Shown: piece after piece, positions 2,111-23,925 of the stretch
Numbering within the stretch: the first letter of the stretch is position 1
Layout of the letters: every line of letters starts with the position of its first letter
Virus record (IMG/VR): IMGVR_UViG_3300029130_000028
Coordinates: 1-33,908 of that record
Direction: 5' to 3' (one strand)
Length of the DNA stretch: 33,908 nt
Source: a virus
The notes under the pieces: generated by a model
What the model saw: only the letters and a program-made list of their open reading frames with translations
Told to the model about the DNA's origin: nothing
Databases searched by the model: none
Translations under genes and position numbers: made by a program

Positions 2111-2135
2111 AACGGTGCCCGAATCGGGCACCGTT
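2111..2135. terminator. Bidirectional intrinsic terminator hairpin containing palindrome copy 1
   Basis: The sequence AACGGTGCCCGAATCGGGCACCGTT is flanked by AAAATAAA on one side and TTCTC on the other. On the minus strand it is followed by TTTTATTTTT. It lies between convergent genes. Confidence 0.7.
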
Positions 2136-2137
2136 TC

Positions 2138-2248
2138 TCAGAGGATCTCGCCGCTAATGATTTTCAGTGCGGCCGCCAAGGCCTCGGCCTGCGCCGCTTC
2201 GTCCAGACTGTCGAACAACGCCAACAAGTCCTCCTCCCACTCATTCAT
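2138..2248 (-). CDS. Small acidic ORF (36 aa), not in the supplied track
   Basis: The translation is MNEWEEDLLALFDSLDEAAQAEALAAALKIISGEIL. The RBS GGGGGAG precedes the ATG at 2248. It has its own promoter (2277-2304) and ends at the 2111-2135 terminator. Confidence 0.4.
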   Translation of the reverse strand: MNEWEEDLLALFDSLDEAAQAEALAAALKIISGEIL

Positions 2249-2276
2249 GTCGCTCCCCCTTCAAAATAGTACCTTT

Positions 2277-2304
2277 ATTGTACCACTTCGACAAAATATG
2301 TCCA
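2277..2304 (-). promoter_or_regulatory. Predicted promoter: TGGACA-16-TGgTACAAT
   Basis: On the minus strand TGGACA is at 2304-2299 and TACAAT at 2282-2277, preceded by TGG. Confidence 0.5.
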
Positions 2305-2369
2305 GTAAAATGCAAATTTTTTGCAAAAAATATATGTAAGCGGCAGATTTGCCGCGGAAAGGGAAAGAT

Positions 2370-2738
2370 ATGGTCGATTTCAAAAACGGGGTGGTTTTCA
2401 AGCTGAAGGAGTCCAACGAAGTGCCGTCCGCCATCCGCGACATTCTCCTGCCGGGCGAGCAGGTGGTCGGAAACTACAAGGCTATCCGCGACTACGTGCT
2501 GTTCACCGACCGCCGACTCATCTCCTGCAATGTGCAGGGCATCACCGGCAAGAAGCAGGACTTTACATCCTTGCCTTACAAAAATATTACTGTGTTTTCT
2601 GTGGAGACTGCCGGCGTGCTGGATCTGGATAGCGAGCTGGAGTTGTACTTCGCCGGCCTGGGGAAAGTGCATTTTGACTTTTCCGGCAAGTGCGACATCA
2701 AATCCATCGGACGCTGCATAGCGCAGGCGGTTCTTTAA
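2370..2738 (+). CDS. Bacterial PH-domain (YokE/bPH_1-like) protein, 122 aa; a moron between repressor and integrase
   Basis: The translation is MVDFKNGVVFKLKE...LLPGEQVVGNYKAIRDYVLFTDRRLISCNVQGITGKKQDFTSLPYKNITVFSVETAG.LDLDSELELYF. This matches the bPH pattern (GE.v...... rd.lvfTnkRli..d.qg..gkk......pY..I..fs.et). The ATG at 2370 has the RBS AAAGGGAAAG; the track start at 2349 is a TTG. Confidence 0.7.
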   Translation: MVDFKNGVVFKLKESNEVPSAIRDILLPGEQVVGNYKAIRDYVLFTDRRLISCNVQGITGKKQDFTSLPYKNITVFSVETAGVLDLDSELELYFAGLGKVHFDFSGKCDIKSIGRCIAQAVL

Positions 2739-2748
2739 TTTTCGACGC

Positions 2749-2777
2749 AAAGCGGTGCCCGATTCGGGCACCGCTTT
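2749..2777. terminator. Bidirectional hairpin terminator containing palindrome copy 2
   Basis: The sequence is AAAGCGGTGCCCGATTCGGGCACCGCTTT. It lies just after the bPH gene stop and before the integrase RBS. Confidence 0.65.
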
Positions 2778-2799
2778 CTCAAAAGGAGGGAGTCATGCC

Positions 2800-3963
2800 A
2801 TGCAGTGCAAGAATAAGGGCTGCGGCCGCGAGATAGACGCCGACTCCGTCTACTGCAAATGGTGCGGCACCCGGCAGGTCCGGGAGCAGCGCAGCAAGAA
2901 CACCGCCCACACGCCCACCGCCCGGAAGCTTCCCAGCGGCTCATGGGCCTGCCGCGTCCGCGTCAACGGGCAGGATGTGTCCATTACCCGCGAGACCAAG
3001 GAGGAGGCCATTGCCGAGGCCATGGCCATCAAGCACGGCCTAAAGGCGCCCGATAAGGCCGCCCCTACTATGACGTTGCGGGAAGCCTACCGGAAGTACA
3101 TAGAATCCCGCGACGGGGTACTGTCCCCGTCCACCGTGGCTGGATATATGCGCCTGCAGCGAAACACATTCCAGCGGCTCATGCCGATGAAGCTGGGGAA
3201 CATCACCTCCGAGCAGATCCAGCGGGAGATCTCCGCCATGGCCAAGGGCGGAAAGGCCCCGAAGTACATCGCCAACGCCGAGGGTTTGCTATCCTCCGTC
3301 CTTAAACAGTTTAATCCGGGCGCCAGTTACGACCTGCACCTTCCTCCCAAGCGCAAGCCGGAGCTCCAAAAGCTGGAGGACGGGGACATCGCCGGTGTCC
3401 TGGCAGCGTTCCGGGGCGATCCCGTGGAACTGCCGGTGTTGATGGCGCTATGGATGGGGATGCGCATGTCGGAGATCCTCGGCGCAGAGTTCGGCGACAT
3501 CGATGGTGGTCGGCTGCACATCCGCCGCGCCGTTGTCATAGATGCGGAAAACAACAGCGTGGTGAAGGACTCTGCCAAGACCTACGCCGGAGACCGGTGG
3601 GTCGATATTCCGCTCTACATCATGGCTCTCATCCGCGCCGACGGCAGGGACTCCGGGAGGATCGTCACCTTTACCGGCGCAACCATCTACAAGCGCTTTG
3701 TGCGAGGAATGGAGCGGGCAGGACTGCCGCGCTGCCGTTTCCATGACCTTCGTCACGCCAACGCCGCCATCATGGTGCGGCTCGGCGTCGATTCCAAGTA
3801 TGCGCAAGAGCGCAACGGCTGGGCGTCTGACCGGATGTACAAGCAGGTCTACTCTTACACTATGGACGATCAGATGGCCGCGATCAGTCGGCAGATGGAC
3901 GACTATTTTGACAACAAAATGTCAACAGAAATTCAAGAAGCCAAGAAGAAACAACGCGTATAA
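2800..3963 (+). CDS. int: Tyrosine recombinase / phage integrase with an N-terminal zinc ribbon
   Basis: The ATG at 2800 follows AAAAGGAGGG. The N-terminus has CKNKGCG...CKWCG. An R is present in GMRMSEILG, and the HDLRH box and a C-terminal Y region (YKQVYSY) are present. The gene is adjacent to the tRNA-like attP. The track start at 2755 is a GTG inside the palindrome. Confidence 0.9.
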   Translation: MQCKNKGCGREIDADSVYCKWCGTRQVREQRSKNTAHTPTARKLPSGSWACRVRVNGQDVSITRETKEEAIAEAMAIKHGLKAPDKAAPTMTLREAYRKYIESRDGVLSPSTVAGYMRLQRNTFQRLMPMKLGNITSEQIQREISAMAKGGKAPKYIANAEGLLSSVLKQFNPGASYDLHLPPKRKPELQKLEDGDIAGVLAAFRGDPVELPVLMALWMGMRMSEILGAEFGDIDGGRLHIRRAVVIDAENNSVVKDSAKTYAGDRWVDIPLYIMALIRADGRDSGRIVTFTGATIYKRFVRGMERAGLPRCRFHDLRHANAAIMVRLGVDSKYAQERNGWASDRMYKQVYSYTMDDQMAAISRQMDDYFDNKMSTEIQEAKKKQRV

Positions 3964-3974
3964 GCTTCCTTCCA

Positions 3975-4002
3975 AGGGGTTCGACTCCCCTCAGCTCCAC
4001 CA
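3975..4002 (+). other. attP core: 3' end of a tRNA/tmRNA-like gene (T-arm, acceptor strand, ACCA)
   Basis: The elements are AGGGG-TTCGACT-CCCCT (T stem-loop), CAGCTCC (acceptor 3' strand), A (discriminator) and CCA. There is no 5' half upstream, where the int coding sequence lies, so this is a fragment that would regenerate a host gene on integration. Confidence 0.7.
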
Positions 4003-4012
4003 AAATGGAAAA

Positions 4013-4043
4013 CCGCCTGATCGCAACGATCAGGCGGTTTTTT
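4013..4043 (+). terminator. Intrinsic terminator following the tRNA-like fragment
   Basis: CCGCCTGATCG-CAA-CGATCAGGCGG is an 11-bp perfect stem, followed by TTTTTT. Confidence 0.8.
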
Positions 4044-4092
4044 ATTTATTCACAAGGCTTTGCGGCTCGCCGTGCGTCCGAGCCAGCGCAAA

Positions 4093-4116
4093 AACCGTCC
4101 AGCCTTGCGGACGGTT
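4093..4116 (-). terminator. Terminator of the leftward moron transcript (usable in both directions)
   Basis: The stem is AACCGTCC...GGACGGTT. On the minus strand it is followed by TTTTTG. It lies 45 nt downstream of the stop at 4161. Confidence 0.6.
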
Positions 4117-4160
4117 TTACGCTCGATAAAAACAACTTTTGTCAATGAAATGACAACGGG

Positions 4161-4499
4161 CTATCCCTGCGGCCGCTGATACGCTCCGGCTGCCTGTGCC
4201 AGCAGGAGGCGGAGATAGTCTGGGCAGCTCCTCACGCCGCGCTCCCAGTCCTCCAGTGTGCGGGTGGGGATGCAGTAGCGCATAGCAAAGGCTGCTTGGG
4301 ACAGGCCGGTGTGCTGCCGGATGTTGCGGATCGTCAGGTGGGCGGCATCCCAGAGACGCGCCAGCAGATCGATGCGGTCTGCGGGGATGTCTGCGGCGTC
4401 CCCCCAGACGGAGGACAGCGACCAGTCGGAGACAAAAGCGTCTCGGTCGGCGGCGGCGAGTGCTGCGGCGAAAAGGGTGCAAAACAGTTTGTCTGTCAT
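4161..4499 (-). CDS. HTH protein (113 aa) with an antitoxin/Aca-like C-terminal HTH
   Basis: The ATG at 4499 has the RBS AAAGGA. The translation contains IRNIRQHTGLSQAAFAMRYCIPTRTLEDWERGVRSCPDYLRLLL, matching the IPxRTLxxWExGxRxxP motif of small XRE/MqsA-like HTH proteins. Confidence 0.7.
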   Translation of the reverse strand: MTDKLFCTLFAAALAAADRDAFVSDWSLSSVWGDAADIPADRIDLLARLWDAAHLTIRNIRQHTGLSQAAFAMRYCIPTRTLEDWERGVRSCPDYLRLLLAQAAGAYQRPQG

Positions 4500-4539
4500 G
4501 TTTAATATCCTTTCGTAGGTGAAAATGTGAAAAAGGAAA

Positions 4540-4558
4540 AGCACCGGTCACCGGTGCT
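4540..4558 (-). terminator. Intrinsic terminator or attenuator hairpin
   Basis: The minus-strand sequence is AGCACCGG-TGA-CCGGTGCT, followed by TTTTCCTTTTT. Confidence 0.6.
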
Positions 4559-4635
4559 CTTCCCGCGGGTGAAGGACTTGTCCTTCTCACCTTTTCAATC
4601 CACGGATGCAAGCGCCTCCTGCATCCGACGAGAAT

Positions 4636-4664
4636 AGGTTACCACGCTGCGCGGGAAATGTCAA
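4636..4664 (-). promoter_or_regulatory. Predicted promoter: TTGACA-17-TGgTAACCT
   Basis: On the minus strand TTGACA is at 4664-4659. The extended -10 GCGTGGTAACCT closely resembles the 5888-5916 promoter (GCGTGGTAGTAT). Confidence 0.4.
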
Positions 4665-4670
4665 GCGCCG

Positions 4671-5000
4671 TCATGACTGCGTCCCACCCGCCAGATATAT
4701 GGCGTTCTCACGTTCTGTCTGCTCGTAGTCCGCCATCGCGTCCGCGATCATGTCCGCGATCTGCTGCTGGGACTTGTAGCGGGTGGTGATGCCAACCTTA
4801 ATGACGTCAGCGTCGTGGTAGACCGTCCATTCCTCGCGGTCCCAGTGGTACTTGCACCAGACGTCGCCGGTGGACTTGTCGTAGAAAATCTCCACATACT
4901 CCCCCGTGCGGGAGCCGAGGCCCTTGGTGGAATTGGAGGCGTTGGCCAATGTCTCCATGTTGATTTTTCTGCCGTAGGTCTTGATCTCCATGTTTTTCAT
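4671..5000 (-). CDS. Hypothetical protein (109 aa), moron operon
   Basis: AGGAGGAG lies upstream of the ATG at 5000. No family was recognised. Confidence 0.6.
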   Translation of the reverse strand: MKNMEIKTYGRKINMETLANASNSTKGLGSRTGEYVEIFYDKSTGDVWCKYHWDREEWTVYHDADVIKVGITTRYKSQQQIADMIADAMADYEQTERENAIYLAGGTQS

Positions 5001-5013
5001 GACAACTCCTCCT

Positions 5014-5550
5014 TCAGTCCCAAAGGTGGGATTCGCAGTGTGTCGCCCAGTCGCTGTTCATGGCGGCGATGGCCTGTTCGTAGTTTTCGCCGTTGACGAT
5101 GGCGTCCAGCGCCTTCTTGCCAGCTGCGGATTTTGCGTCGTTTTCGGACGCCGCGAACTCCTGCGCGTCCAAATACGCCTTGGCGCAGGGGTACTGGGCG
5201 TACATGGCATCCATGTCATACTTCGGCTTGGGACGGACGCCCACGCCGCCGCCGTTCTCGCTGTCAAAACTGGCGTCAAATTCCAGTTTCCAATTTACCA
5301 GATCGGCACGGGCGGCTTCGATCTCCCGCAGGCCGGGAATGGCGGCGATTTTCTTCTGCCGCTCCTGCTCTGCGCGGATACCGGCTTCGCGCTGCTCCAG
5401 CAGAGTGGCCACGATCTCCGGCTTTGCGGCTTTGATGGCGGCAAGAGCCGCTTTGTCGGCGCGGTACACAACCAGATTTCCGGTGGGCTGGCCGTGTTCG
5501 TCGAGTTTCAGGGAAATCCTGTACCGCAGAATCAGTTCCTGTGCGTTCAT
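5014..5550 (-). CDS. Hypothetical protein (178 aa), moron operon
   Basis: CAGGAGGAAC lies upstream of the ATG at 5550. No family was recognised. Confidence 0.6.
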   Translation of the reverse strand: MNAQELILRYRISLKLDEHGQPTGNLVVYRADKAALAAIKAAKPEIVATLLEQREAGIRAEQERQKKIAAIPGLREIEAARADLVNWKLEFDASFDSENGGGVGVRPKPKYDMDAMYAQYPCAKAYLDAQEFAASENDAKSAAGKKALDAIVNGENYEQAIAAMNSDWATHCESHLWD

Positions 5551-5628
5551 GTTCTGTTCCTCCTGTTCAAAAATTTTTATGGGGTGGGGCTGATGCGCTC
5601 AAACCCTCCAGAAGCGTTGTTGTTGCTA

Positions 5629-5835
5629 TCAGCGGGCCAGCTCTGCCGCCGTAGCGGCCACGCGATCCTCGGCGGCGCGGATGCTGTCCGCCTTGCTGTA
5701 GGTGTGGGCCACCGGGTCGTCCCGGTAATCGTGGGCGGCGAAGGCTTCTGCGGCGGACTTGCTGTCAAACCATGCCTCCCGGGAGAAGCTGGATCCCCAT
5801 ACGCTGTAAGTGACGGAATAAAAAGCCTTTTTCAT
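5629..5835 (-). CDS. Hypothetical protein (68 aa), first gene of the moron operon
   Basis: The ATG at 5835 has the RBS AAAGGGAAA. The translation begins MKKAFYSVTYSVWGSSFSREAWFDSKSAAEAF. Confidence 0.55.
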   Translation of the reverse strand: MKKAFYSVTYSVWGSSFSREAWFDSKSAAEAFAAHDYRDDPVAHTYSKADSIRAAEDRVAATAAELAR

Positions 5836-5887
5836 GATATTTCCCTTTCTGCCGCTGTGCGGCTGCAATGTTTCTTGATCTGTCTAT

Positions 5888-5916
5888 ATACTACCACGCA
5901 ATGCGTGGTATGTCAA
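5888..5916 (-). promoter_or_regulatory. Predicted moron promoter: TTGACA-17-TGgTAGTAT, with a 19-bp perfect palindrome in the spacer
   Basis: On the minus strand TTGACA is at 5916-5911 and TAGTAT at 5893-5888. The palindrome TACCACGCAATGCGTGGTA (5892-5910) overlaps the spacer and -10. Confidence 0.6.
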
Positions 5917-5941
5917 GAGAAAATCGTAATTTTAATCAAAA

Positions 5942-5974: not shown

Positions 5975-5980
5975 TTTGAC

Positions 5981-8823: not shown

Positions 8824-10890
8824 TTAAAAGTTGTTGACGGTGGACACCCGTGAAATATCTCCGGTGCCCCCGGTTTTCGTGGCGCTGCCCGCACCGTCAA
8901 AGCTGAAGGCGCAGTACCAGTCGTTGGAAGCGCATTGGTAGCTGCCTGACTGCCCCGCGGGGATAAAGCACCCCGCCTGATTCCCGCTGCCGCCCGTGCA
9001 GTACACGACGTACCCGATGACCTTCTGCGTTGGGAATGTGACAGTCTTTCCGTCCTGTTTGTAATTGGATGCGTCGACAGATCCACCTACGGACAGATCC
9101 TTTTCGATCTCGCCGTACTGCGCGCCGATCGTGTTGGCCGCGGCGCGGCCAAATCCCACCGAGAACACGATGTTCTCGGTGTCCGCGCCGGTGATGTTGT
9201 TGTGGTAGACACGATAGATCTTCAAGAGGCTGTTCCCGTCGGCGGGGTCGATGCGCAGGCGCCACCGCGTGGTGAAGTTTACCGTTCGCGCCCCGCTGAT
9301 GATCTGCTGGATCTGCACGGTATCGGTGATGCTGATCGTACCATCGCCATTGACATCCAGCTTTTCATAGTCGGCCAGCGTTGGCGTGACAGCCTTGATG
9401 TTGATCTGGTTGATTCGGTCAAGATCCGCCTGCGAGTAGTTGGAGTTCTTATAAGTCGCGCCGGTGGCGCTGGTGTCGATGGTACCGCCGTCCAGGTTGA
9501 TCAGGAAATTTCCCTGTTCACTGGCGATGGTGCCGGCCACCAGATTGGCTGCCGTGATCATCCACGCCTGGATGCCCCCAGCGATGGTAGCGCCCATCTT
9601 GTAGGGGCCATTGTAGCCGGTGCTGCTGGCGGCCCAGCCCTCGTAGTTGAATCGCCACACCTTCTTGGCTTTGGTGGGGTCAGGATCGTCAGCGATGTAC
9701 TGCTCGTCCGGCTCACCGTCTCCGTTCGTGTCAAGCAGACGGACAGAACCGCCGTTCGCCCCCAGGAGCGCGGCTGTCAGGCCGGATGAAATCTGCTCCA
9801 CCAGCGAGATGGACGGCTTGGCGTCGATCTCGCTTTGCTGCCCGGCGATGGTAGATGCGATGCTGGCCTTGACGCTGCCGAGCGCTACGCTGTCGTAGCG
9901 CTCCAGCAGGCAGTCCCAGACGATCTTGTTTACCCGCGCCTTGGCATCCACACCCAGACGGTGGAAGTAGACGCCTACGGTATCGCCCAGATAGATCTGC
10001 TCCAGGAACACTACATCCTCATACCCGGAGGACTGCGCCAGCAGTGCCAACTTCACATCCCAGCTCACCGCGGGAACGCCGAGGCGGTTCTGCTTGGTGT
10101 AGGATGTAGCTGCGGCCTGCAGCTGCGCTTGCGTGGGCCGCTGCTCGAAGCTGGAGGATAGATCCAGCGGCATGAGGCGGACGTAGCCGTAGTCGCCCTC
10201 TGCGTACACTGGCGCGGCCGTGACCGTGACATCGTTTCCGCGCCAGTAAGGCACCACGCCCGTGTAGCAGTTGGCGCAGTTGGCATCCTGCGTCAGATCG
10301 GTGAGGTTCTTTCCGTACCGGACCGATACGCCCCGGTCCGCTCCGCGGCGCGTCAGCAGCCGCACCATCCACTCGTCAAACTCGTACTCGCCGCCGTATA
10401 CGTCCAGCAGGCTGCCACGCTGACCGCCCAGCAAGCCCCATGCGCTGGTGGGAACCATGACGCTCAAGGTAGCCACGGTGGTCTTATCGGTGCCCAAGGT
10501 AAACGGCATTCCTGCCGGCAGCGCGTGGCTCTTGATGCCCGCCACAGCGGATGGTGCATCCGCTGCCGTGAATGGAGACACCACATAGCCGCCGAGGTCA
10601 TAGGCGATGTGCCGCGCGTAGATGGCCGCTGTGCCGTTCATGCTGGGCACGATGCGATATACCCTAAAAGGCTGCAGCTTGCCGTCTGGGCCAACGGTAG
10701 CCCGAAGAATGGCGCGCAGCGCGATCTCTTCATAGTGGATTCCTTCCACCGGATAGTGCAGCTCCAGTTCGTACTGACCGTTCAGCTCCTGCGTCACCTT
10801 GCAGGACATAGCGTCTGCGAGGACGCCCAGCCCGTTGTCAACGCTCGCCGGGAAGCTTGTGCGGTCGGCGTCATATAGGATCGGTTTCAT
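8824..10890 (-). CDS. Tail-associated lysin / minor structural protein (Tal, prophage-tail endopeptidase N-domain)
   Basis: The translation begins MKPILYDADRTSF...NGLGVLADAMSCKVTQELNGQYELELHYP. There is an ATGA overlap with dit. The protein is 688 aa and contains Ca-binding-like DxNGDG motifs. Confidence 0.8.
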   Translation of the reverse strand: MKPILYDADRTSFPASVDNGLGVLADAMSCKVTQELNGQYELELHYPVEGIHYEEIALRAILRATVGPDGKLQPFRVYRIVPSMNGTAAIYARHIAYDLGGYVVSPFTAADAPSAVAGIKSHALPAGMPFTLGTDKTTVATLSVMVPTSAWGLLGGQRGSLLDVYGGEYEFDEWMVRLLTRRGADRGVSVRYGKNLTDLTQDANCANCYTGVVPYWRGNDVTVTAAPVYAEGDYGYVRLMPLDLSSSFEQRPTQAQLQAAATSYTKQNRLGVPAVSWDVKLALLAQSSGYEDVVFLEQIYLGDTVGVYFHRLGVDAKARVNKIVWDCLLERYDSVALGSVKASIASTIAGQQSEIDAKPSISLVEQISSGLTAALLGANGGSVRLLDTNGDGEPDEQYIADDPDPTKAKKVWRFNYEGWAASSTGYNGPYKMGATIAGGIQAWMITAANLVAGTIASEQGNFLINLDGGTIDTSATGATYKNSNYSQADLDRINQINIKAVTPTLADYEKLDVNGDGTISITDTVQIQQIISGARTVNFTTRWRLRIDPADGNSLLKIYRVYHNNITGADTENIVFSVGFGRAAANTIGAQYGEIEKDLSVGGSVDASNYKQDGKTVTFPTQKVIGYVVYCTGGSGNQAGCFIPAGQSGSYQCASNDWYCAFSFDGAGSATKTGGTGDISRVSTVNNF

Positions 10891-11594
10891 AGTGTCCACC
10901 ACCTCGGGATGATCTCCACGCTTGTAATGCCGCCCGTCCAGCGGACGACGCTTTCTCCGGCCGGCAGCGTGGGAAACTCCGGTGCGGAGATAGTATTGTT
11001 CAAATTAAATGCCCCGTAGGAGGCGTTCTGCGTGCCCGAATCGAGCACAACAGCGCCGCGAGGCATGCTGCTGATGCTGACAGTGACATCGCCTACCGTC
11101 AGGGTTCCGGCCCCCGTTCCGGCGACAGTGATCGTGGGCAGAGCCGTGAACGCGGTGGGGTTTCGCAAAACCTCCCCCTGCACGGCCTGCACCGGCATAT
11201 CTCCGATACGGAGAAACCTCTGCGGCTGGCAGTTAAACTCGATCGTCGCGCGGCCAAACCGGTGCATTACGCTTTCCACGTCCAGCGGGCCGGCAAAATA
11301 GGCCCTGCGGTAGGTCTCTACGTCGTAGCTGTCCTCCAGCTTTTGATACCCACGCGGGCCACAGAGCCAGTCAGCCACCGCGCGCATAGCGCGGGGGAGC
11401 CGCATCCGCTCCGCGCTGATGTAGATGCTGTACGCCTGCACGTAATTCTGGTAGGCGTCCTGGAGAAACAGCAGGTCGCCGTTTCGCCCGGGGACGGACT
11501 GCGTGTCCAGCTTGCGCCCGACCAGCTCCACGCTGGGGTAGCGCTCCACCACGACGTGGACGTCGTCGGAGGATCTTCCAGCCCAGAAAATCAT
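10887..11594 (-). CDS. Distal tail protein (Dit)
   Basis: The translation begins MIFWAGRSSDDVHVVVERYPSVELVGRKLDTQSVPGRNGDLLF. There is an ATGA overlap with the TMP stop. The gene sits in the canonical TMP-Dit-Tal order. Confidence 0.8.
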   Translation of the reverse strand: MIFWAGRSSDDVHVVVERYPSVELVGRKLDTQSVPGRNGDLLFLQDAYQNYVQAYSIYISAERMRLPRAMRAVADWLCGPRGYQKLEDSYDVETYRRAYFAGPLDVESVMHRFGRATIEFNCQPQRFLRIGDMPVQAVQGEVLRNPTAFTALPTITVAGTGAGTLTVGDVTVSISSMPRGAVVLDSGTQNASYGAFNLNNTISAPEFPTLPAGESVVRWTGGITSVEIIPRWWTL

Positions 11595-14850: not shown

Positions 14851-15336
14851 CTATTTTATGATTTTTTCAATTTCGCGGCTGCACGCCGCGTCCATTGCCG
14901 TTTCCGCCGACTTCCTGGCGGAGTTCACGGCCTTGTCCACAAACTTTGTTTTTTTCCGGAAGGTAGTGCCGCTGTTGACGGACCTGGCGATCAATGCGTT
15001 GGGCTGTCCTCGCGGGTACTTTTCCGTCCGGGTGGAGTTGTACCCATCAAAGCCAAGTTTGACGTTGACAAACCCGTCATCATCCTTCATGCGGCTGATG
15101 CCAAAGCCATCCAGAAGCCCCGCCTTCTGCGGCAGGGTGACGGTGTCAACCAGGCCGTCGCCCTGAGCGCGGCCGTCGCCTACAGGAAGAGCCTGTATCG
15201 CGCGCCGCACCGAATCAGCCACGACCGCGGCACCGGCATAGACCGTCTTGCCCACCACGCCGTCCTTGGTGGACTGCTGCAGCTTGTTCAGTTGCTTGAT
15301 GTAGTTGTCGATGCCGGAGAACTCGAACCGCGCCAT
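14851..15336 (-). CDS. HK97 gp10-family tail-component protein
   Basis: The translation is MARFEFSGIDNYIKQLNKL...YPRGQPNALIARSVNSGTTFRKKTKFVDKAV. The ATG at 15336 overlaps the upstream stop (ATGA). Confidence 0.7.
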   Translation of the reverse strand: MARFEFSGIDNYIKQLNKLQQSTKDGVVGKTVYAGAAVVADSVRRAIQALPVGDGRAQGDGLVDTVTLPQKAGLLDGFGISRMKDDDGFVNVKLGFDGYNSTRTEKYPRGQPNALIARSVNSGTTFRKKTKFVDKAVNSARKSAETAMDAACSREIEKIIK

Positions 15337-15692
15337 CAGGCGAACACCTCCCAGTCCCACTCGTAGTGCCAGAAGCCGGTTTCTTCCTCAAACTGGCAGC
15401 TGTTCAGGCTCCAGACGATCTCCGCTGCGTCGAAGGCGGCCTCCAGCTCATCCCGCCAGGGGTCAAACTCCTGTTTCGTGAACAGGTCCGTAGAGCCGGT
15501 AACCGCTTTCTCGGCGTGGACGCCGCCGGCCTCGAAGTCGATCGCGCCGTCTTCCTGCCAGACCAGATAGCGGTCGGACTGGAGACGGCCGCCGTGGCTC
15601 ACAGCATCCGTCACGGCCAGGTGCGCCGCGATGACACGCTGTGCCCACAGTGGCGTTGTGCCCGATTCGGGCACATTTCGCTTTCTACTCAT
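15336..15692 (-). CDS. Head-tail joining protein, family unassigned (118 aa); palindrome copy 3 lies in codons 7-12
   Basis: The ATG at 15692 has the RBS GAGGTG. The C-terminus ...EIVWSLNSCQFEEETGFWHYEWDWEV is typical of Firmicutes phage connector-region proteins. Confidence 0.6.
   Translation of the reverse strand: MSRKRNVPESGTTPLWAQRVIAAHLAVTDAVSHGGRLQSDRYLVWQEDGAIDFEAGGVHAEKAVTGSTDLFTKQEFDPWRDELEAAFDAAEIVWSLNSCQFEEETGFWHYEWDWEVFA
15658..15674. repeat. Palindrome copy 3 (GTGCCCGATTCGGGCAC), inside coding sequence
   Basis: It is an exact 17-mer, identical to 2755-2771 and 23909-23925 and the reverse complement of 2115-2131. Confidence 0.9.
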
Positions 15693-16354: not shown

Positions 16355-16356
16355 CG

Positions 16357-19814: not shown

Positions 19815-21500
19815 CTATAGCCGGATCGCGCCGATGGGCGGCAGCTTTACCGGCTCGCCGGTGCCAAGCACCGCCTCCTCAGTCATAGATGCCACCAGAG
19901 CCATGAACGGGTCCGTCTTCCGGCTCTTCGGTTCGATCTTGGCGTAGTAAAAATTTCCTGTATTCGTACCGGCACGTTGGCCGCTGCGCACTCTTTTGGT
20001 ATTGTTCACTCCCCAGCGCAGGGGGGGGTTGTCGCCCCATGTAAACAGGTCGCGATCAAAGCATTCCTGAATCACCGGGTCAACCTGCATGATGTCGCTG
20101 GGTCGAACCAGCTTCACGCGGTTCTTGTCCCTGGCGTCAAAGCCGATGCGCCGCATGGCGTCGCTCACCAGCGTCCAGCGGAAGTGGTCCATTGCCAGTT
20201 TGACGATGCTGTACTTCAAGCCCATCTCCTTCAGGTAGTCCGCCAGGAGGTTGGGGTCGATACTCACATCGTCCACCACCGTCAGCTTTCCCGCCTCCGC
20301 CCAAGCTCGCCACGGGGCGACGATGCGGGAGAGCGACCGGCTCTGCAGGCAGACCCACGAATGGTTGATGTCGAAGCGCTGCGCTCCGATGCGGAAGTGC
20401 AGATTGACGCTCGCCCAGTCGTTGATCTCCGCGTAGTCGATGCCGGCCACGCAGGACTTTCCGCGGAGATCCGGCAGCGGCCGGTTGGTCGCCTTGACCT
20501 TGGCATAGTCCGTCACGCTGATCTCCAGCTGGCCGGCGCGGAGACCCATGCGCTTTGTCAGGAAGTCCCCATTCTGCTCCGGGTTGACCAGCCAGTCCGC
20601 GTATTCCTCCTCGATCTCTTGCCGCAGGTGAGGGACATAGGACAGCGATGGGTTCGCCATGAACCAGTTCTCCGGGTCATTGACCTGCTCCCGGTTTTCC
20701 AGGCAGCAGATGAACGGGAGATAGCCCCCCTCCGGCTCCGCTTCGTTCTCGAAGAGGATCCGCCGCCCCTGAGCTATGAAGTCATCCAGCGGGCCATCAG
20801 ACACGTCGCCGTTCGATGTGAACATCCCGATGCGCGGCTGTCCGACCTTACCCAGACCGGTGACGAAAACCTTGTAGTTGTTGTAGTTCTCAAAGGCGTG
20901 GACTTCGTTAAAGACGACCTTGCCGGAGCGCATACCATCTCGCCCCTTGGGGTTGTTGGTGCGCCCCTTCATCACGCCCTTGTTCTTCCGACCCTGCACC
21001 ATCTCCTTGGTGTGGTAATAGTGCCGGTTGAGCTTTGACTCCCACTTAGGGGATTCAAGGACTTCGGACAGATCCTTCACCGGCGTGACCGCCTGCTCCT
21101 CGTTGTTGGCGCACACGTCCACGTTGTAGTTCTTCACGGGATTGTAAGGGGAGATGGAGCACGCGCCATCAAAGGCGATGAAGCCGTCCTTTCCTGCGCC
21201 GCGCCCCACCATGCAGAGCAGCTTTTTCCACCGTGGCCGCCCATCGGCGCGATACGTACAGTCCCACAGCGCGAGGAGGAACTCCTCCCACGGGAACAGC
21301 CGCTCATAGGGGAAGTAGCGCAGCAGGCTCAGATACCGGCGCAACTGCTCCGTGTCTACGCAGATGTCCTCCGTGTCGAACACGCGGCGGATCATCGCCA
21401 CCAGCGCGTGCTGTTCGGGACAGGCGCGGGGATTATTGGACTCGACAATCTCGATATAGCGCAGAACCTCCGCGGGGATCTCACAGCTCATCGTCATCAT
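19815..21500 (-). CDS. terL: Terminase large subunit
   Basis: The ORF is 561 aa. Walker A-like MVGRGAGKD is present, followed by the nuclease half. It overlaps the terS end. Confidence 0.92.
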   Translation of the reverse strand: MMTMSCEIPAEVLRYIEIVESNNPRACPEQHALVAMIRRVFDTEDICVDTEQLRRYLSLLRYFPYERLFPWEEFLLALWDCTYRADGRPRWKKLLCMVGRGAGKDGFIAFDGACSISPYNPVKNYNVDVCANNEEQAVTPVKDLSEVLESPKWESKLNRHYYHTKEMVQGRKNKGVMKGRTNNPKGRDGMRSGKVVFNEVHAFENYNNYKVFVTGLGKVGQPRIGMFTSNGDVSDGPLDDFIAQGRRILFENEAEPEGGYLPFICCLENREQVNDPENWFMANPSLSYVPHLRQEIEEEYADWLVNPEQNGDFLTKRMGLRAGQLEISVTDYAKVKATNRPLPDLRGKSCVAGIDYAEINDWASVNLHFRIGAQRFDINHSWVCLQSRSLSRIVAPWRAWAEAGKLTVVDDVSIDPNLLADYLKEMGLKYSIVKLAMDHFRWTLVSDAMRRIGFDARDKNRVKLVRPSDIMQVDPVIQECFDRDLFTWGDNPPLRWGVNNTKRVRSGQRAGTNTGNFYYAKIEPKSRKTDPFMALVASMTEEAVLGTGEPVKLPPIGAIRL

Positions 21501-22095
21501 CGCCCCGGGCGGCAGCTGCCAGAGCGTCCTCCTTAAAGCCCAGCGTGGTGAAGATCGCCAGCATCTGGCGGGAGACCTGGATCTCCAGCGACACGCTGCG
21601 GTTTTCCATCAGCCGCCCCCGGTCATCCGTGACGGTCAGCCCGCGCCGGGCAATGTCGTCCCGCAGCTCCTGCCGCCGAACCCAAAAGTCCATATATTCC
21701 TGCACCTTGTCCCGGTACACGTCGCCGTCAAGATCTCTGTCGCTCAGATTCTGCAGCATCGACTGCCGGAGTTCCTTATAGGCGTCCGTCAGGCGGTAGT
21801 TCTTCCTCTTCTGCGGCGGCGCGTCATGGCACGCCCGCTGCGCCTCCAGGTGCCGCGCCATGGACACGTTCTTCTTCGCTGCGGCGACCTGCTCGCCGCG
21901 CAGAACAATGCGCCCCATCATAGCCAGCCGGTCAAACGCGCTCCGGAAGCCCTCGCCGTAGGTGTCCAAGCACCAAGCATTCAGAGCCGCCTCGTCGCAG
22001 CCAAACCAGCCACACAGCTCCTCCACGGAGCACTGCATACTGCACAAGCTCTCAAATTGCTTTCGGTCAAATTCACGCTGCCCGGTCACTACCAT
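21481..22095 (-). CDS. terS: Terminase small subunit (P27-like C-terminal region)
   Basis: The ATG at 22095 lies 4 nt after the radical SAM stop. The translation contains ...YKELRQSMLQNL...EYMDFWVRRQELRDDIARRGLTVTDDRGRLMENRSVSLEIQVSRQMLAIFTTLGF. It sits directly upstream of terL. Confidence 0.7.
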   Translation of the reverse strand: MVVTGQREFDRKQFESLCSMQCSVEELCGWFGCDEAALNAWCLDTYGEGFRSAFDRLAMMGRIVLRGEQVAAAKKNVSMARHLEAQRACHDAPPQKRKNYRLTDAYKELRQSMLQNLSDRDLDGDVYRDKVQEYMDFWVRRQELRDDIARRGLTVTDDRGRLMENRSVSLEIQVSRQMLAIFTTLGFKEDALAAAARGDDDDEL

Positions 22096-22099
22096 CACC

Positions 22100-23434
22100 T
22101 CACTTAAACGGTTTGCCCCACAACTTTTCAACTTTTGCATACGTCCGTAAATACCTGCTGGGGAGCGTTTCCGGACTGAATCGCCCGAATAGGGTATCCA
22201 CATCGAAGTAGCGCTCCAACGTGGCGACCCGGACTGCCGTTGACGCAGACCAGAACTTACGAGACCGCGAAACTCTCATAATCGCGTCCGTGTCCGCAGA
22301 TGACCCACGATGACAGATAGCCGACAGAATGACCGTGGGAAGAGATTCCGTTCCCATGCTTTCTACTGCCCAAAGGTTACGCCCTTGATAGATCAGATTA
22401 CCTTTAAGCCCAGCTCCAAGAACGTGCCCGATCTCTCCACGATAATTGCGGTAGCTCATAGGCTCACACGCCATGGGCGTGGCAGGCATAGCGCGGAACG
22501 GGGTACAGTGCAGAACGATAGACCAAGGCCTGTCTATTAACGCAGAATCCCTATCCGCTTGACCGATAACATCAACAATCTCATACCAGTCCGCCTCTGT
22601 CTCCGTCGGATACCCCACGATGCTGTATAGCTTAACCTGGTGCGGCTTGCCTTGATAGCGAAGCATTGCTCCCAAGAAGTCCAGCAGCACAGCCTTGGTA
22701 ATTGGCTTGTTGACCATCCGCCTAAGGCGCTCGCTCATTCCGTCAATAGAGGTCGTTCGTAGGCGCGAAAAATTTACTTCAGCAAGATTCTTGTGTAAAT
22801 CCAGCAACGCGCGTTCCTTCTCTGCAATCCCGCCAAACAGAGAATCCTGCATGTAGTAAAAGTTATCAGGGGAAACGAAGCGACGCTGCCAGGTGTAACC
22901 ACAGAACATGCACCTATGATTGCAACCGATAGGTCCTTCACGGAAGTCGCGGGTCTCGCTTAGTGAAATCTTGTGAGGATACGGGCTGGAAGCCTGAGCA
23001 ATCTTGTAAATACGATCCGGCGAGAATGTTTTACTGCACGCCACGCTCTCGTGCTCCCATCCTCCATCTCGCTCAATCCCGCGAACCAGCGGCACGATCA
23101 GATTCTCGCCACGACCAAAAATGAAGAAGTCGCCAAACGGCAGGAACGGCGCAATGTGGAGCAGACCCGCGCCGCCGATGACTACCTTGTAATTTCCCGG
23201 CTGCCACTTTGTTCGCTCCGAAATAAAGCTCCACCAATCGCAATCACTGGTTAAAGACACAAGCACCACATCGTAATTGTGAACCGTAGCCGCGCCCGCA
23301 TACTCAACCTCATACCCGGCACGCTCCAGGCAGTCCACAATGACACGAAGTCCGGCAAACTGACGCGTCTCCATGCACTCGTTCTTATAGTTGACTTTGG
23401 CATAAGCTTCTTGGACATAAGCACATATCTTCAT
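22100..23434 (-). CDS. Radical SAM enzyme with an N-terminal Rossmann/B12-binding-like domain (444 aa)
   Basis: GCNHRCMFCGY carries the CX3CX2C 4Fe-4S/SAM motif. The N-terminal region DVVLVSLTSDC...VVIGGAGLLH...FIFGRGENLIVPLV resembles class-B radical SAM N-domains. There is an ATGA overlap with the upstream gene. GC is lower than in the flanks. Confidence 0.85.
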   Translation of the reverse strand: MKICAYVQEAYAKVNYKNECMETRQFAGLRVIVDCLERAGYEVEYAGAATVHNYDVVLVSLTSDCDWWSFISERTKWQPGNYKVVIGGAGLLHIAPFLPFGDFFIFGRGENLIVPLVRGIERDGGWEHESVACSKTFSPDRIYKIAQASSPYPHKISLSETRDFREGPIGCNHRCMFCGYTWQRRFVSPDNFYYMQDSLFGGIAEKERALLDLHKNLAEVNFSRLRTTSIDGMSERLRRMVNKPITKAVLLDFLGAMLRYQGKPHQVKLYSIVGYPTETEADWYEIVDVIGQADRDSALIDRPWSIVLHCTPFRAMPATPMACEPMSYRNYRGEIGHVLGAGLKGNLIYQGRNLWAVESMGTESLPTVILSAICHRGSSADTDAIMRVSRSRKFWSASTAVRVATLERYFDVDTLFGRFSPETLPSRYLRTYAKVEKLWGKPFK

Positions 23435-23895
23435 GCGTCCACCTCAAAGGCAAAGCCGCACTTAGGACAGTGCAGCAGCTGACGGTTGCCGCCATCGGTT
23501 GGTTCGTCATCATCCAGATCAAGCGGAGATTTATCCGGCAAACCCCACTCGAAATCAAACGCCGACAGATCCAGCTCCGGCAGCTCGGCGGCCAGCAGGT
23601 CGAGATCCCACGGACTCTCGTTGGTCTTGTTGTCCACAAGACGCAGGGCGTTCACCTGCTCCGGCGTCAGATCATCGACGCAGACGCAGGGCACCTCGAC
23701 CATGCCCAGCTTCTCCGCCGCCAGGGCGCGGCAATGACCAATGACGATTACGCCGTCCCGGTCTACAACGACCGGCTGCACAAAGCCGTACTGCCGGATA
23801 CTCTCTGCCACATTAGCTACCTGCGCGGCGTCATGCCTCTTGGCGTTGGCGCGATACGGCGTCAGCTCCACCAGCGGCCTGTTCTCGATTCGCAT
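23431..23895 (-). CDS. ParB-like nuclease N-domain (ParBc/Srx fold) protein with a C-terminal zinc ribbon (154 aa)
   Basis: The ATG at 23895 has the RBS AGGAGGTGA. The translation is LTPYRANAKRHD...IRQYGFVQPVVVDRDGVIVIGHCRALAA...DDLTPEQVNALRLVDNK, ending in HCPKCGFAF. The track start at 23925 is a GTG inside the palindrome. Confidence 0.8.
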   Translation of the reverse strand: MRIENRPLVELTPYRANAKRHDAAQVANVAESIRQYGFVQPVVVDRDGVIVIGHCRALAAEKLGMVEVPCVCVDDLTPEQVNALRLVDNKTNESPWDLDLLAAELPELDLSAFDFEWGLPDKSPLDLDDDEPTDGGNRQLLHCPKCGFAFEVDA

Positions 23896-23908
23896 AAAGT
23901 CACCTCCT

Positions 23909-23925
23909 GTGCCCGATTCGGGCAC
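23909..23925. repeat. Palindrome copy 4, one nt upstream of the SD of the ParB-N gene
   Basis: This is an exact copy of the 17-mer GTGCCCGATTCGGGCAC. Confidence 0.9.

What the first reader, a model, noticed from the sequence alone, without database searches (positions are those of the whole stretch)
2115..23925. Exact 17-nt palindrome GTGCCCGAWTCGGGCAC dispersed four times around the genome, plus two degenerate copies inside dit and parB
**Copies**
- Exact copies lie at 2115-2131, 2755-2771, 15658-15674 and 23909-23925.
- A 16/17 copy lies at 11032-11048, inside dit.
- A copy with one arm mismatch and a different centre lies at 29746-29762, inside parB.
- I found them because the ORF track repeatedly begins spurious ORFs with MPESGT or MPDSGT (GTG CCC GAA/GAT TCG GGC AC).
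- A second chance copy of a given 17-mer in about 68 kb of two-strand sequence is expected at roughly 1e-5. This is a rough estimate.

**Contexts differ**
- Two copies are extended into 25-29-nt hairpins with A/T flanks. These act as bidirectional terminators bracketing the bPH moron.
- One copy ends 1 nt before the SD of the ParB-N gene that heads the ParB-N/radical SAM/terminase block.
- One copy is inside codons 7-12 of a head-tail gene, where a terminator would be counterproductive.

**Hypotheses (inference)**
- (a) It is a shared RNA hairpin for termination, processing or translational control.
- (b) It is a dispersed parS-like loading site for one of the two ParB-N proteins. The plasmid-prophage N15 has centromere sites scattered through its genome, and chromosomal parS sites often lie inside parB.
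- (c) It is an operator for a phage regulator.
Basis: partly seen in the sequence, partly recalled or inferred. Interest (0 to 1): 0.7.

Follow-up and report, generated by a model that had tools for sequence, protein, structure and literature searches.

The report
Dispersed ParB binding sites in phage
The repeated 17-base palindrome is most likely the DNA docking site (a parS-like centromere/operator) of the phage's own 518-aa ParB protein, one member of a large, undescribed site-protein pair in phages of gut Firmicutes.

Summary
There are four exact copies of GTGCCCGAWTCGGGCAC plus two degenerate ones, against 0 to 0.1 expected by chance.

The palindrome belongs to a family, GTGYCCRA-N-TYGGRCAC. 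It occurs in hundreds of gut phage contigs of 27-68% GC.

It has the anatomy of a double-stranded DNA site for a symmetric dimer:
- two 8-bp half-sites around one free centre base;
- A8 and T10 invariant;
- a mirror-image flank rule.

Its presence tracks one protein family, a Noc/Spo0J-like ParB encoded next to ParA:
- 22 of 24 ParB-positive loci carry copies outside parB, against 0 of 70 ParB-negative related loci;
- two prophages of one Flavonifractor strain differ in the same way.

A copy lies at the 5' end of parB in homologs down to 31% identity. Symmetric base changes there rewrite the encoded peptide (VPESGT to VSNLDT).

The other copies sit at gene junctions or in protein tails, almost always in one reading frame. 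Some coincide with mosaic breakpoints.

Two copies are extended into hairpins, and one of these is terminator-like.

Binding has not been tested. The closest precedents are N15 and KorB.

The parts
2115..2131 (.). Site 1, exact palindrome GTGCCCGAATCGGGCAC. It lies 5 nt after the stop of the HTH (Cro/CI-type) gene and is extended to a 13-bp stem (2109-2137).
   Evidence: It is terminator-like on the - strand only (stem plus TTTTATTTTT). It is conserved in L003 and L106, and L002 carries the variant GTGTCCGAATTGGACAC.
2755..2771 (.). Site 2, exact palindrome, between the bPH moron and the integrase gene. It is extended to a 13-bp stem (2749-2777), and the integrase ATG at 2797 follows.
   Evidence: It has no T-tract. 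Homology with L001 and L106 starts exactly here. L001 carries the symmetric variant GTGTCCGAATCGGACAC, with covarying outer stem bases.
11032..11048 (.). Site 3, degenerate (16/17), inside dit (10887-11594, - strand), codons 183-188, read as V-L-D-S-G-T.
   Evidence: The syntenic site is kept across the clade as GTGCTCGATTCGGRCAC in sense orientation. It is decaying further in L001 and L002.
15658..15674 (.). Site 4, exact, in the N-terminal tail of the head-tail gene (15336-15692, - strand), codons 7-12, read as V-P-E-S-G-T.
   Evidence: It lies in a 15-codon N-terminal extension that motif-less orthologs lack. In L315 the same gene junction carries the site in the C-terminal tail of the upstream gene.
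23909..23925 (.). Site 5, exact, abutting the AGGAGG SD of the ParB-N gene. This is the head of the ParB-N / radical-SAM / TerS / TerL block.
   Evidence: The site is kept in L001, where a different gene follows, and in L002. Phage Cormatin has a family copy just 5' of the TerS SD.
29746..29762 (.). Site 6, degenerate, in parB codons 17-22 (V-S-E-S-G-T). This is the linker between the N-terminal MAKFD peptide and the ParB N-domain.
   Evidence: A family palindrome occupies this position in 20 of the 23 ParB-fetched loci, whose ParB homologs span 31-89% identity, and in Cormatin (36% identity to the window's ParB in alignment A1). In the other three loci the site is degraded. It is also at or just upstream of the parB start in 17 of 30 ParB genes from motif-fetched loci.
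28254..29810 (-). parB, 518 aa: the proposed reader of the sites. Its parts in order are a ParB/Noc CTPase-fold N-domain (SGHRRxAA), an HTH-like segment GRMRDHVAEACKISKSKLARL, a Cys-rich region, an XRE-like segment and a beta-rich C-terminus.
   Evidence: Pfam ParB_N. The profile matches Noc and ParB in the PDB, E = 5e-12. More than 4,000 homologs were found, and sources name them chromosome partitioning protein. Co-occurrence with the motif is shown.
29797..30585 (-). parA, 262 aa Walker-type ATPase, overlapping the parB start.
   Evidence: Pfam AAA_31 / CbiA / ParA, E = 2e-30.
23431..23895 (-). ParB-N-only protein, 154 aa, downstream of site 5.
   Evidence: Pfam ParB_N, E = 1e-6. The gene is absent from L001, L244, L253 and L259, which keep the motif.
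997..1013 (.). Possible weak seventh copy, GTGTCCGAATTGAACGC, with 2 mismatches to the family pattern.
   Evidence: Not followed up, and it could be chance (0.17 expected per shuffle at this stringency).

Best explanation
The palindrome is the specific double-stranded DNA site of the phage's 518-aa ParB.

Proposed mechanism:
- A ParB dimer reads two 8-bp half-sites, [not A]GTGYCCRA, placed around one free base pair.
- By analogy with Spo0J, Noc and KorB, it then closes as a CTP-dependent clamp and slides onto flanking DNA.
- The circular genome of about 33.8 kb carries six such loading sites. One is in the linker-coding part of parB itself.
- The others lie where sequence is cheapest to constrain: short intergenic spacers next to SD sequences, operon ends, and disordered N- or C-terminal tails of proteins.
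- In tails the site is nearly always read as V-[PS]-x-[SL]-[GD]-T.
- With ParA, the sites would act as centromeres for the excised or episomal genome.
- Because they sit at the heads and boundaries of transcription units (before the packaging/late block, and around the lysogeny module), they may also silence or insulate genes. KorB on RK2 and SopB on N15 do or are thought to do this.

Side effects:
- Where a copy lies at an operon end, its GC-rich dyad is extended into a hairpin that can double as a terminator (2115).
- The identical 17-mers shared by co-infecting phages serve as joints for module exchange, and even for in-frame domain exchange.

Shown here: the anatomy of the site, its family-wide distribution, its co-occurrence with ParB, and its conservation in parB.

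Inferred: binding, CTP clamp behaviour, and partition or silencing.
For: 1. Anatomy of a dimer DNA site.
- Across 50 + 57 de-duplicated site families, position -1 is almost never A (3/50 and 1/57). Position +1 is almost never T (2/50 and 1/57).
- The base frequencies at these two positions mirror each other.
- A8 and T10 are invariant, although they could not pair in a hairpin.
- The centre base is free.

2. Co-occurrence with ParB.
- 70 loci, about 0.95 Mb, were fetched through an HNH protein of a motif-less relative. This retrieval is blind to both the motif and ParB.
- 69 of them have neither a ParB-profile hit nor any family palindrome.
- The one locus with a ParB (L511) is the one with the motif, with one copy inside parB and one elsewhere.
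- Over all fetched loci, 22 of 24 ParB-positive loci have at least one copy outside the parB 5' end (53 sites). None of 70 ParB-negative loci has one. Fisher p = 1.7e-19.

3. Same host, opposite states.
- Cormatin and Chenonceau are both prophages of Flavonifractor plautii YL31.
- Cormatin has parAB and 4 exact family copies, out of only 6 perfect 17-nt palindromes in its genome.
- Chenonceau has no ParB hit and no exact copy.

4. Deep conservation at parB.
- Homologs of 31-89% identity, in phages of 27-63% GC, carry the palindrome at codons about 14-22 or 32-38 nt upstream of the start.
- Symmetric changes keep the dyad while changing the peptide: C4-G14 to T-A, and G7-C11 to A-T. VPESGT becomes VSESDT or VSNLDT.

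5. Alleles tend to agree within a genome.
- L462, L463 and L466 carry only GTGTCCAASTTGGACAC.
- In L457 the four near-perfect copies all have T at position 11 and three of them A7-T11.
- The window clade carries G7-C11.
- L002 has the same triple variant at three sites.

6. The protein.
- It has a ParB/Noc CTPase N-domain with SGHRRxAA, followed by an HTH-like segment.
- A ParA gene is adjacent.
- Foldseek's top hits are all Spo0J, Noc, ParB or KorB, but weakly.

7. Precedent. N15 has four dispersed sites of the form GTGCGACCnnGGTCGCAC (PMC7205306). KorB is a CTP clamp that silences at a distance (PMC11790492).
Against: - No binding or genetic data exist.
- Only 44 of 240 motif-fetched loci show a ParB gene. 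The loci are partial (2-15 kb of 20-45 kb contigs), so it is not shown that every motif-bearing phage has ParB.
- Many ParB-positive loci are related to each other, so the Fisher test overstates independence.
- Cormatin mixes two alleles: G7-C11 in parB and A7-T11 elsewhere. Specificity co-variation is therefore not strict.
- 13 of 30 ParB genes in motif loci have no copy within 150 nt of their start.
- The placement right next to SD sequences, the extended stems at 2115 and 2755, and a mild excess of G.U-compatible over C/A changes on the sense strand leave room for an RNA-level role.
- An odd 8+1+8 dyad is unusual for chromosomal parS (16 bp). KorB's operator is also odd; this point rests on my own knowledge.
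- The structure model of ParB is poor (pLDDT 58).
Confidence: 0.7

Rival explanations
1. The primary function is at the RNA level. A 7-bp GC-rich hairpin with a 3-nt loop sits at gene junctions, and it terminates transcription, blocks exonucleases, marks processing sites or tunes translation of the gene that follows.
For: - Many copies lie 0-30 nt upstream of an SD and start codon.
- Copies at 2115 and 2755, and many in other phages, are extended to 12-15-bp stems, some with T-tracts.
- The outer stem bases covary.
- Single-arm variants are more often G.U-compatible on the sense strand, about 9-10 against 3-4.
Against: - A8 and T10 are invariant and mirror each other, although they would sit in the loop.
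- The flank rule is symmetric (no A at -1, no T at +1), which a strand-specific RNA does not predict.
- Four clade members carry a C/A mismatch on the sense strand.
- A generic hairpin would not track one protein family, nor be absent from about 1 Mb of related ParB-less phage DNA.
- It would not keep one sequence from 27% to 68% GC.
- Only the 2115 copy passes the terminator scan, and only on the - strand.
Confidence: 0.12
2. The site is the operator of a different phage-encoded DNA-binding protein that travels with the par module. Candidates are the 106-aa Cro/CI-type HTH protein, the 154-aa ParB-N protein, or an unrecognised regulator. It would work like the stoperators of cluster A mycobacteriophages or the repeated 17-bp inverted repeats of phiC31.
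For: - The anatomy is that of a dyad-symmetric DNA site, with several dispersed copies at gene boundaries.
- Two copies flank the lysogeny-module genes next to the HTH gene.
- Stoperators are a documented precedent for dispersed repressor sites (PMC9283540).
Against: - ParB-N is missing in relatives that keep the motif.
- No window protein other than the par, replication and lysis genes recurs in the motif loci.
- Immunity operators normally diversify quickly. This site is the same across phages with unrelated gene sets and very different GC.
- The one position conserved in all lineages is the 5' end of parB.
Confidence: 0.08
3. The palindrome is mainly a recombination joint or a small selfish palindromic element. 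It would be a conserved 'linker' that spreads with modules and mediates their exchange, like the PeSL cassettes of T4-type phages, REP elements or Rickettsia palindromic elements, and would have no binding function of its own.
For: - BLAST alignment ends among motif loci pile up at the outer edge of the motif: 94 against 10.4 expected within 10 nt, with a sharp peak at -2 to +2.
- One protein has the same N-terminal domain (96% nt identity) joined at VPDSGT to two unrelated C-terminal domains.
- The head-tail copy sits in a 45-nt insertion relative to motif-less orthologs.
- Window/L001 homology begins at site 2, and the gene after site 5 differs in L001.
Against: - The breakpoint enrichment was not controlled for gene boundaries, where phage mosaic joints lie anyway.
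- 17 bp with no associated recombinase has no known mobility mechanism.
- The site is held at parB across ParBs of 31% identity with symmetric compensatory changes, which means purifying selection rather than recent spread.
- It is absent from host chromosomes outside prophage-like loci.
- One real intragenic copy is in a different frame, so frame compatibility is not a rule.
Confidence: 0.06

Closest known systems
Dispersed centromere sites IR1-IR4 of the linear plasmid-prophage N15 (SopA/SopB)
   Same: - It is a temperate phage with a parAB-type module.
- It has a handful of near-identical palindromes scattered through the phage genome rather than one clustered centromere.
- Even the style of the site is alike: GTGCGACC-nn-GGTCGCAC in N15 against GTGCCCGA-W-TCGGGCAC here (PMC7205306).
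   Different: - N15 is a linear plasmid prophage of E. coli. These phages carry integrases or are integrated (the window has an integrase; Cormatin is a chromosomal prophage).
- The dyad here is 8+1+8, not 8+2+8.
- One copy lies inside the parB coding sequence, and several lie in protein tails in a fixed frame.
- The ParB here is a 518-aa multidomain protein.
- Binding is untested here.
KorB and its OB operators on plasmid RK2
   Same: - KorB is a ParB-family CTPase clamp with about a dozen dispersed palindromic sites.
- The sites serve both partition and global, long-range transcriptional silencing (PMC11790492, PMC13584720).
- Its operator is an odd-length palindrome (my own knowledge).
   Different: - RK2 is a plasmid, not a phage.
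- KorB needs clamp-locking partners (KorA, TrbA), and no counterpart was identified here.
- A regulatory role of the phage sites is inferred only from their positions.
Chromosomal ParB-parS and Noc-NBS of Firmicutes
   Same: - The N-domain of the phage ParB matches Noc and Spo0J structures (7ol9, E = 5e-12).
- A parS inside or next to parB is classical (my own knowledge).
   Different: - The site sequence and length differ (16-bp parS, 14-bp NBS).
- The phage protein has added Cys-rich, XRE-like and C-terminal beta domains.
Stoperators of cluster A mycobacteriophages
   Same: They are many copies of one short protein-binding site spread over a phage genome at gene boundaries, some in coding sequence. 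They act on transcription through the prophage (PMC9283540, PMC6550527).
   Different: Stoperators are asymmetric 13-mers, orientation-biased, 20-30 per genome, and read by a monomeric immunity repressor. The sites here are symmetric, 4-6 per genome, and track ParB.
PeSL mobile regulatory cassettes of T4-type phages, and Botstein-type module linkers (own knowledge, not checked in the library)
   Same: They are conserved stem-loop-containing sequences at gene junctions that coincide with mosaic joints.
   Different: PeSLs include an early promoter, are longer and are strictly intergenic. Here the joint function looks like a by-product of a shared binding site.

Membership tests
ParABS partition system (site = parS-like centromere) | Short dyad-symmetric DNA site present in one or more copies on the replicon | tested here: met
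   Six copies in the window. The dyad is 8+1+8 with a symmetric flank rule.
ParABS partition system (site = parS-like centromere) | Cognate ParB with a CTPase-fold N-domain (GxxRxxA) and an HTH DNA-binding domain | tested here: inconclusive
   The N-domain is met: Pfam ParB_N, a profile hit to Noc and ParB (E = 5e-12), and an invariant SGHRR. The HTH is only inferred from the conserved GRMRDHVAxACxVSKSKLARL segment and from weak Foldseek hits spanning the ParB N + HTH domains. Pfam finds no HTH model.
ParABS partition system (site = parS-like centromere) | Adjacent ParA Walker-type ATPase | tested here: met
   The gene at 29797-30585 matches AAA_31 / CbiA / ParA, E = 2e-30, and overlaps the parB start.
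ParABS partition system (site = parS-like centromere) | Site and ParB occur together across replicons | tested here: met
   22/24 ParB-positive loci against 0/70 ParB-negative loci. Cormatin and Chenonceau, from the same host strain, differ in the same way. The reverse direction, that every motif genome has ParB, was not testable on partial loci.
ParABS partition system (site = parS-like centromere) | ParB binds the site, and the site confers ParAB-dependent stability | not testable with these tools
   This needs EMSA or ChIP-seq and plasmid-stability assays.
KorB/N15-type dispersed ParB sites with a regulatory role | Several copies dispersed over the replicon rather than one cluster | tested here: met
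   The gaps around the circle of about 33.8 kb are 0.6, 8.3, 4.6, 8.3, 5.8 and 6.2 kb. Cormatin has 4 dispersed copies.
KorB/N15-type dispersed ParB sites with a regulatory role | Sites placed at promoters or operon heads and affecting transcription | tested here: inconclusive
   Copies lie before the ParB-N/TerS block in the window and just before TerS in Cormatin. Others lie around the lysogeny module. No promoter or expression evidence was obtained.
Intrinsic (factor-independent) terminator | GC-rich stem followed by a T/U tract | tested here: not met
   Only the 2115 copy qualifies, and only on the - strand. The copies at 2755, 11032, 15658, 23909 and 29746 have no T-tract.
Mycobacteriophage stoperators | Asymmetric site with orientation bias relative to transcription, tens of copies, read by the immunity repressor | tested here: not met
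   The site is a perfect palindrome with 4-6 copies per genome. It is the same in phages with unrelated gene sets.
REP / RPE-like mobile palindromic repeats | Many copies spread through the host chromosome, with insertion polymorphism | tested here: not met
   The genome-collection scan gave single hits in unrelated high-GC taxa, at about the number I estimate for chance (roughly 70 over the collection). Multi-copy hits occurred only in prophage-like Oscillospiraceae loci. One insertion-like case was seen, the head-tail N-terminal extension.

The most novel reading that the evidence does not exclude
The six sites may be more than centromeres. They could form a genome-wide array of ParB clamp-loading points, spaced 5-8 kb apart, through which one CTP-switch protein coats and silences or compacts the whole phage genome during lysogeny or before packaging. 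The same invariant 17-mers, written in one reading frame into disordered protein tails, would then act as universal in-frame joints. These joints would let unrelated gut phages swap genes, and even protein domains, wherever a site exists. A regulatory site would thus double as the long-postulated 'module linker' of phage evolution.
Probability: 0.15. Interest if true: 0.8.

Novelty: new member of a known kind. Interest (0 to 1): 0.6.

Why it matters
- The result assigns a candidate DNA site to a large, uncharacterised family of prophage ParB proteins. More than 4,000 homologs were found in one search. A recent survey of the ParB-CTPase fold treats most phage members as functionally unknown (PMC12704722).
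- There is a tractable test system. Cormatin is a prophage of Flavonifractor plautii YL31, a member of the OMM12 model gut community. It carries four exact copies.
- If ParB binds the sites, this extends the N15/KorB principle of dispersed ParB sites, with possible gene silencing, to integrating temperate phages of the dominant gut Firmicutes.
- It also gives a clean example of a protein-binding site dictating the amino-acid sequence of protein linkers.
- It shows how a shared binding site can seed module and domain exchange between phages.
- For annotation, the motif explains a class of spurious 'MPESGT...' ORF starts.

Tried and rejected
- **Host-genome repeat, uptake sequence or REP-like element.** Rejected. 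The scan of 185,579 species genomes gave mostly single hits in unrelated high-GC taxa, about the number I estimate for chance (roughly 70 over 596 Gb). Only prophage-like Oscillospiraceae loci had several copies.
- **Host factor site.** Disfavoured by two prophages of the same strain that differ in motif and ParB.
- **Functional peptide VP[DE]SGT.** Rejected. There are intergenic copies. Paired changes such as P to S with G to D, and S to L with E to N, keep the dyad but not the peptide.
- **Strict 'one frame only' rule as proof of in-frame recombination.** Dropped after finding a real copy in another frame, in a Ref-like nuclease gene. Tolerance of the benign frame suffices to explain the bias.
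- **ParB-N (154 aa) as reader.** Unlikely, because the gene is absent where the motif stays.
- **Common protein in motif loci, by all-against-all clustering.** Uninformative, because the loci are partial.
- **Sense-strand G.U bias as a test of an RNA role.** Only weak and mixed.
- **Known RNA family.** Rfam gives nothing for the motif. The only hit in the window is the DUF3800-VIII RNA next to site 5.
- **Literature.** No paper in the library contains either 17-mer or its 15-nt core.
- **Structure prediction of ParB.** It gave a poor model (pLDDT 58). The Foldseek hits point consistently to ParB, Noc and KorB but are weak, so they are used only as soft support.
- **Breakpoint enrichment at the motif.** It is real against random positions. 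It was not controlled against gene boundaries, so it is not used as primary evidence.

Full report
**1.

The pattern GTGCCCGAWTCGGGCAC occurs exactly four times, at 2115, 2755, 15658 and 23909. With mismatches allowed, copies appear at 11032 (one mismatch) and 29746 (one arm mismatch plus centre C). Dinucleotide-preserving shuffles give 0.00 and 0.10 matches respectively.

The window has 60.7% GC. It is a circular assembly, because bases 1-99 recur at 33810-33908.

- On the + strand: a Cro/CI-type HTH gene (1790-2110), a bPH gene (2349-2738) and an integrase (2797-3963).
- On the - strand: dit, the head-tail genes, portal, TerL, TerS, a B12/radical-SAM gene, a 154-aa ParB-N protein, HNH, a 518-aa ParB (28254-29810), ParA and DnaB.

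The three intragenic copies are all read in one frame: V-L-D-S-G-T in dit, V-P-E-S-G-T in the head-tail gene and V-S-E-S-G-T in parB.

Both copies that flank the bPH gene are extended to 13-bp stems. Only the 2115 hairpin has a T-tract, and only on the - strand.

**2. The motif is not private to this phage**

These fall into 53 flank-distinct site families.

The symmetric variant GTGTCCGAWTCGGACAC occurs in another 120 or more stretches, in 65 families. Those contigs range from 27% to 68% GC.

The contexts recur:
- directly 5' of an SD and start codon of very different genes (holins, integrases, adaptors, lipoproteins, PAAR proteins);
- at gene ends, with extended stems and T-runs;
- inside coding sequence.

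Neither sequence appears in any paper of the library.

A scan of one genome per bacterial species gave mainly single hits in unrelated high-GC taxa, about the number I estimate for chance. Multi-copy hits occurred only in prophage-like loci of Oscillospiraceae such as Dysosmobacter and Oscillibacter. The element belongs to phages, not to host chromosomes.

**3. Selection acts on the nucleic acid, not on the peptide**

I fetched eighty loci through the head-tail protein, a retrieval that does not depend on the motif.
- The window's clade (58-62% GC) keeps palindromes at three syntenic places.
- More distant orthologs (45-50% GC) have none within 3 mismatches.
- In those distant orthologs the head-tail protein starts M-S-W. 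The motif lies in a 15-codon N-terminal extension that they lack.
- In L315 the same gene junction carries the motif in the C-terminal tail of the upstream gene.

Variants at one site include GTGTCC...GGACAC, where P to S and G to D change together and the dyad is kept.

In my classification of the flank-distinct site families, clearly intragenic copies are almost always in the V-[PS]-x-[SL]-[GD]-T frame (13 independent gene contexts). One real exception is read in another frame, inside a Ref-like nuclease gene in ten loci. The frame bias is best explained by tolerance. That frame encodes a benign, linker-like peptide.

**4. The evidence favours DNA over RNA**

The site families were oriented by the sense strand and de-duplicated.
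- Position -1 is almost never A (3/50 and 1/57).
- Position +1 is almost never T (2/50 and 1/57).
- The base frequencies at these positions mirror each other.
- A8 and T10 are invariant, although a hairpin would leave them unpaired.
- The centre base is free.

This is what a symmetric dimer on double-stranded DNA predicts: half-sites [not A]GTGYCCRA around one base pair.

A sense-strand excess of G.U-compatible changes exists but is weak, about 9-10 against 3-4. Four clade members also have a C/A mismatch on the sense strand.

Rfam has nothing for the motif.

**5.

Twenty-three loci were fetched through ParB, with homologs of 31-89% identity. In 20 of them a family palindrome sits at the same N-terminal codons, just before the conserved REQIEYI; in the other three the site is degraded.
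- The alleles are GTGYCCGAWTCGGRCAC or GTGTCCAANTTGGACAC. The latter is a perfect dyad with the compensatory A7-T11 pair, and it reads as VSNLDT.
- In AT-rich phages (27-28% GC) the same 17-mer lies 32-36 nt upstream of the parB start.
- Alleles tend to agree within a genome. L462, L463 and L466 carry only the A7-T11 form, L457's four near-perfect copies all have T at position 11, and the window clade carries G7-C11.

The decisive control came from 70 loci, about 0.95 Mb, fetched through the HNH protein of a motif-less relative.
- 69 have neither a ParB-profile hit nor any family palindrome.
- The single locus with ParB (L511) is the single locus with the motif.
- Overall, 22 of 24 ParB-positive loci have copies outside the parB 5' end (53 sites). 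None of 70 ParB-negative loci has one. Fisher p = 1.7e-19, with the caveat that many loci are related.

Two complete prophages of one strain, Flavonifractor plautii YL31, make the same point.
- Cormatin has parAB and four exact family copies. They lie in the parB N-terminus, just 5' of the TerS SD, in the C-terminal tail of the head-tail adaptor, and at an early-gene junction.
- Chenonceau has no ParB and no exact copy.

This argues against a host factor.

The 154-aa ParB-N protein is not required. L001, L244, L253 and L259 lack it and keep the motif.

**6. The protein fits the role**

- Its N-domain matches Noc and Spo0J/ParB structures (7ol9, E = 5e-12), and it has an invariant SGHRR.AA motif in the GxxRxxA position.
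- A strongly conserved HTH-like segment follows, and ParA lies immediately upstream.
- The palindrome in parB lies in the linker between the N-terminal MAKFD peptide and this domain.
- An AlphaFold model was poor (pLDDT 58). Its Foldseek hits are all ParB, Noc, Spo0J or KorB, but with E of 9e-3 or worse.
- The family is large, with more than 4,000 homologs at E below 1e-10. Where sources name it, they call it a chromosome partitioning protein.

**7. How it probably works**

ParB dimers recognise each dyad. By analogy with other ParB-family CTPases, they then clamp and slide onto neighbouring DNA.

With ParA this would segregate the excised or episomal genome. Sites before the packaging block and around the lysogeny module suggest an added silencing or insulating role, as for KorB on RK2 (PMC11790492) and as discussed for N15. 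N15's four dispersed sites, GTGCGACCnnGGTCGCAC, are strikingly similar in style (PMC7205306).

These steps are inferred. Only the anatomy, the distribution and the co-occurrence are shown.

**8. By-products**

Where a copy lies at an operon end, its dyad has been extended into a strong hairpin. A dual use as a terminator is plausible for 2115.

Shared identical 17-mers also coincide with mosaic joints:
- alignment ends pile up at the motif edge, 94 against 10.4 expected;
- homology between the window and L001 begins at site 2;
- the gene after site 5 differs in L001;
- one protein has a 96%-identical N-terminal domain joined at VPDSGT to two unrelated C-terminal domains.

I did not control this for gene boundaries, so I treat it as a consequence of the shared site rather than its purpose.

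**9. Verdict**

Hypothesis (b) is supported, for the large ParB. It is a new member of a known kind: dispersed ParB sites in the manner of N15 and KorB. Its unusual features are:
- a copy written into the parB linker;
- copies in protein tails in one frame;
- very wide spread among gut Firmicutes phages.

Binding remains to be shown.

Noticed in passing
window 23935-24001 (- strand): Rfam match to DUF3800-VIII RNA (RF03075), 46.2 bits against a gathering score of 40.2. It lies directly upstream of site 5, between HNH and ParB-N. The stretch is an insertion of about 80 nt relative to L001 and L002.
   Followed up: partly
window 22100-23434 (- strand): A B12-binding/radical-SAM gene lies between ParB-N and TerS. 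Among about 38 clade members it is present only in the window and L254, so it behaves as a rare moron. ParB-N itself is also variably present.
   Followed up: partly
window 1-99 and 33810-33908: A 99-nt terminal direct repeat. The window is a circular assembly with a unique genome of about 33,809 bp. It carries both an integrase and parAB.
   Followed up: yes
L040:1088, L017:126, L041:1785, L113:6625 versus L029:1166, L032:484: An in-frame domain swap exactly at the palindrome. The same N-terminal domain (96% nt identity) is joined at VPDSGT to two unrelated C-terminal parts. Pfam does not name any of the parts.
   Followed up: partly
L356 (6216/6255, 9850/9888), L392, L352 (64/121), L354 (2676/2725): Tandem pairs of GTGTCCGATTCGGACAC spaced 38-57 nt apart, with up to five copies in 11 kb. 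This may be a clustered centromere arrangement in some phages.
   Followed up: no
L338:2086 and nine related loci (44% GC): An exact palindrome inside a Ref-like RecA-dependent nuclease gene (PF16786, E = 3e-5). It is read in a different frame (C-P-N-R-T-H). There is no variation within the 17-mer, although the flanking third codon positions vary.
   Followed up: partly
L124, L160, L164, L173 (Pseudaminobacter, Aliihoeflea, Chelativorans, Mesorhizobium): The same 17-mer occurs in loci of these alphaproteobacteria that also give a DnaB hit. I did not check whether it lies inside dnaB. It may be a conserved orthologous position unrelated to the phage element.
   Followed up: no
window 2131-2755, and L001 / L002 upstream of the integrase: The bPH gene between sites 1 and 2 is replaced in L001 and L002 by a different gene that ends ...MEKVG*. 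The cargo between the two palindromes is variable.
   Followed up: partly
window 4009-4041: A 15-bp-stem hairpin unrelated to the motif (AAAACCGCCTGATCG...), downstream of the integrase. It is terminator-like on the - strand.
   Followed up: no
L002 (MT835558), sites syntenic to window 2115, 15658 and 29746: Three sites in one genome share the same triple variant, GTGTCCGAATTGGACAC. This points to concerted change of copies within a genome.
   Followed up: partly
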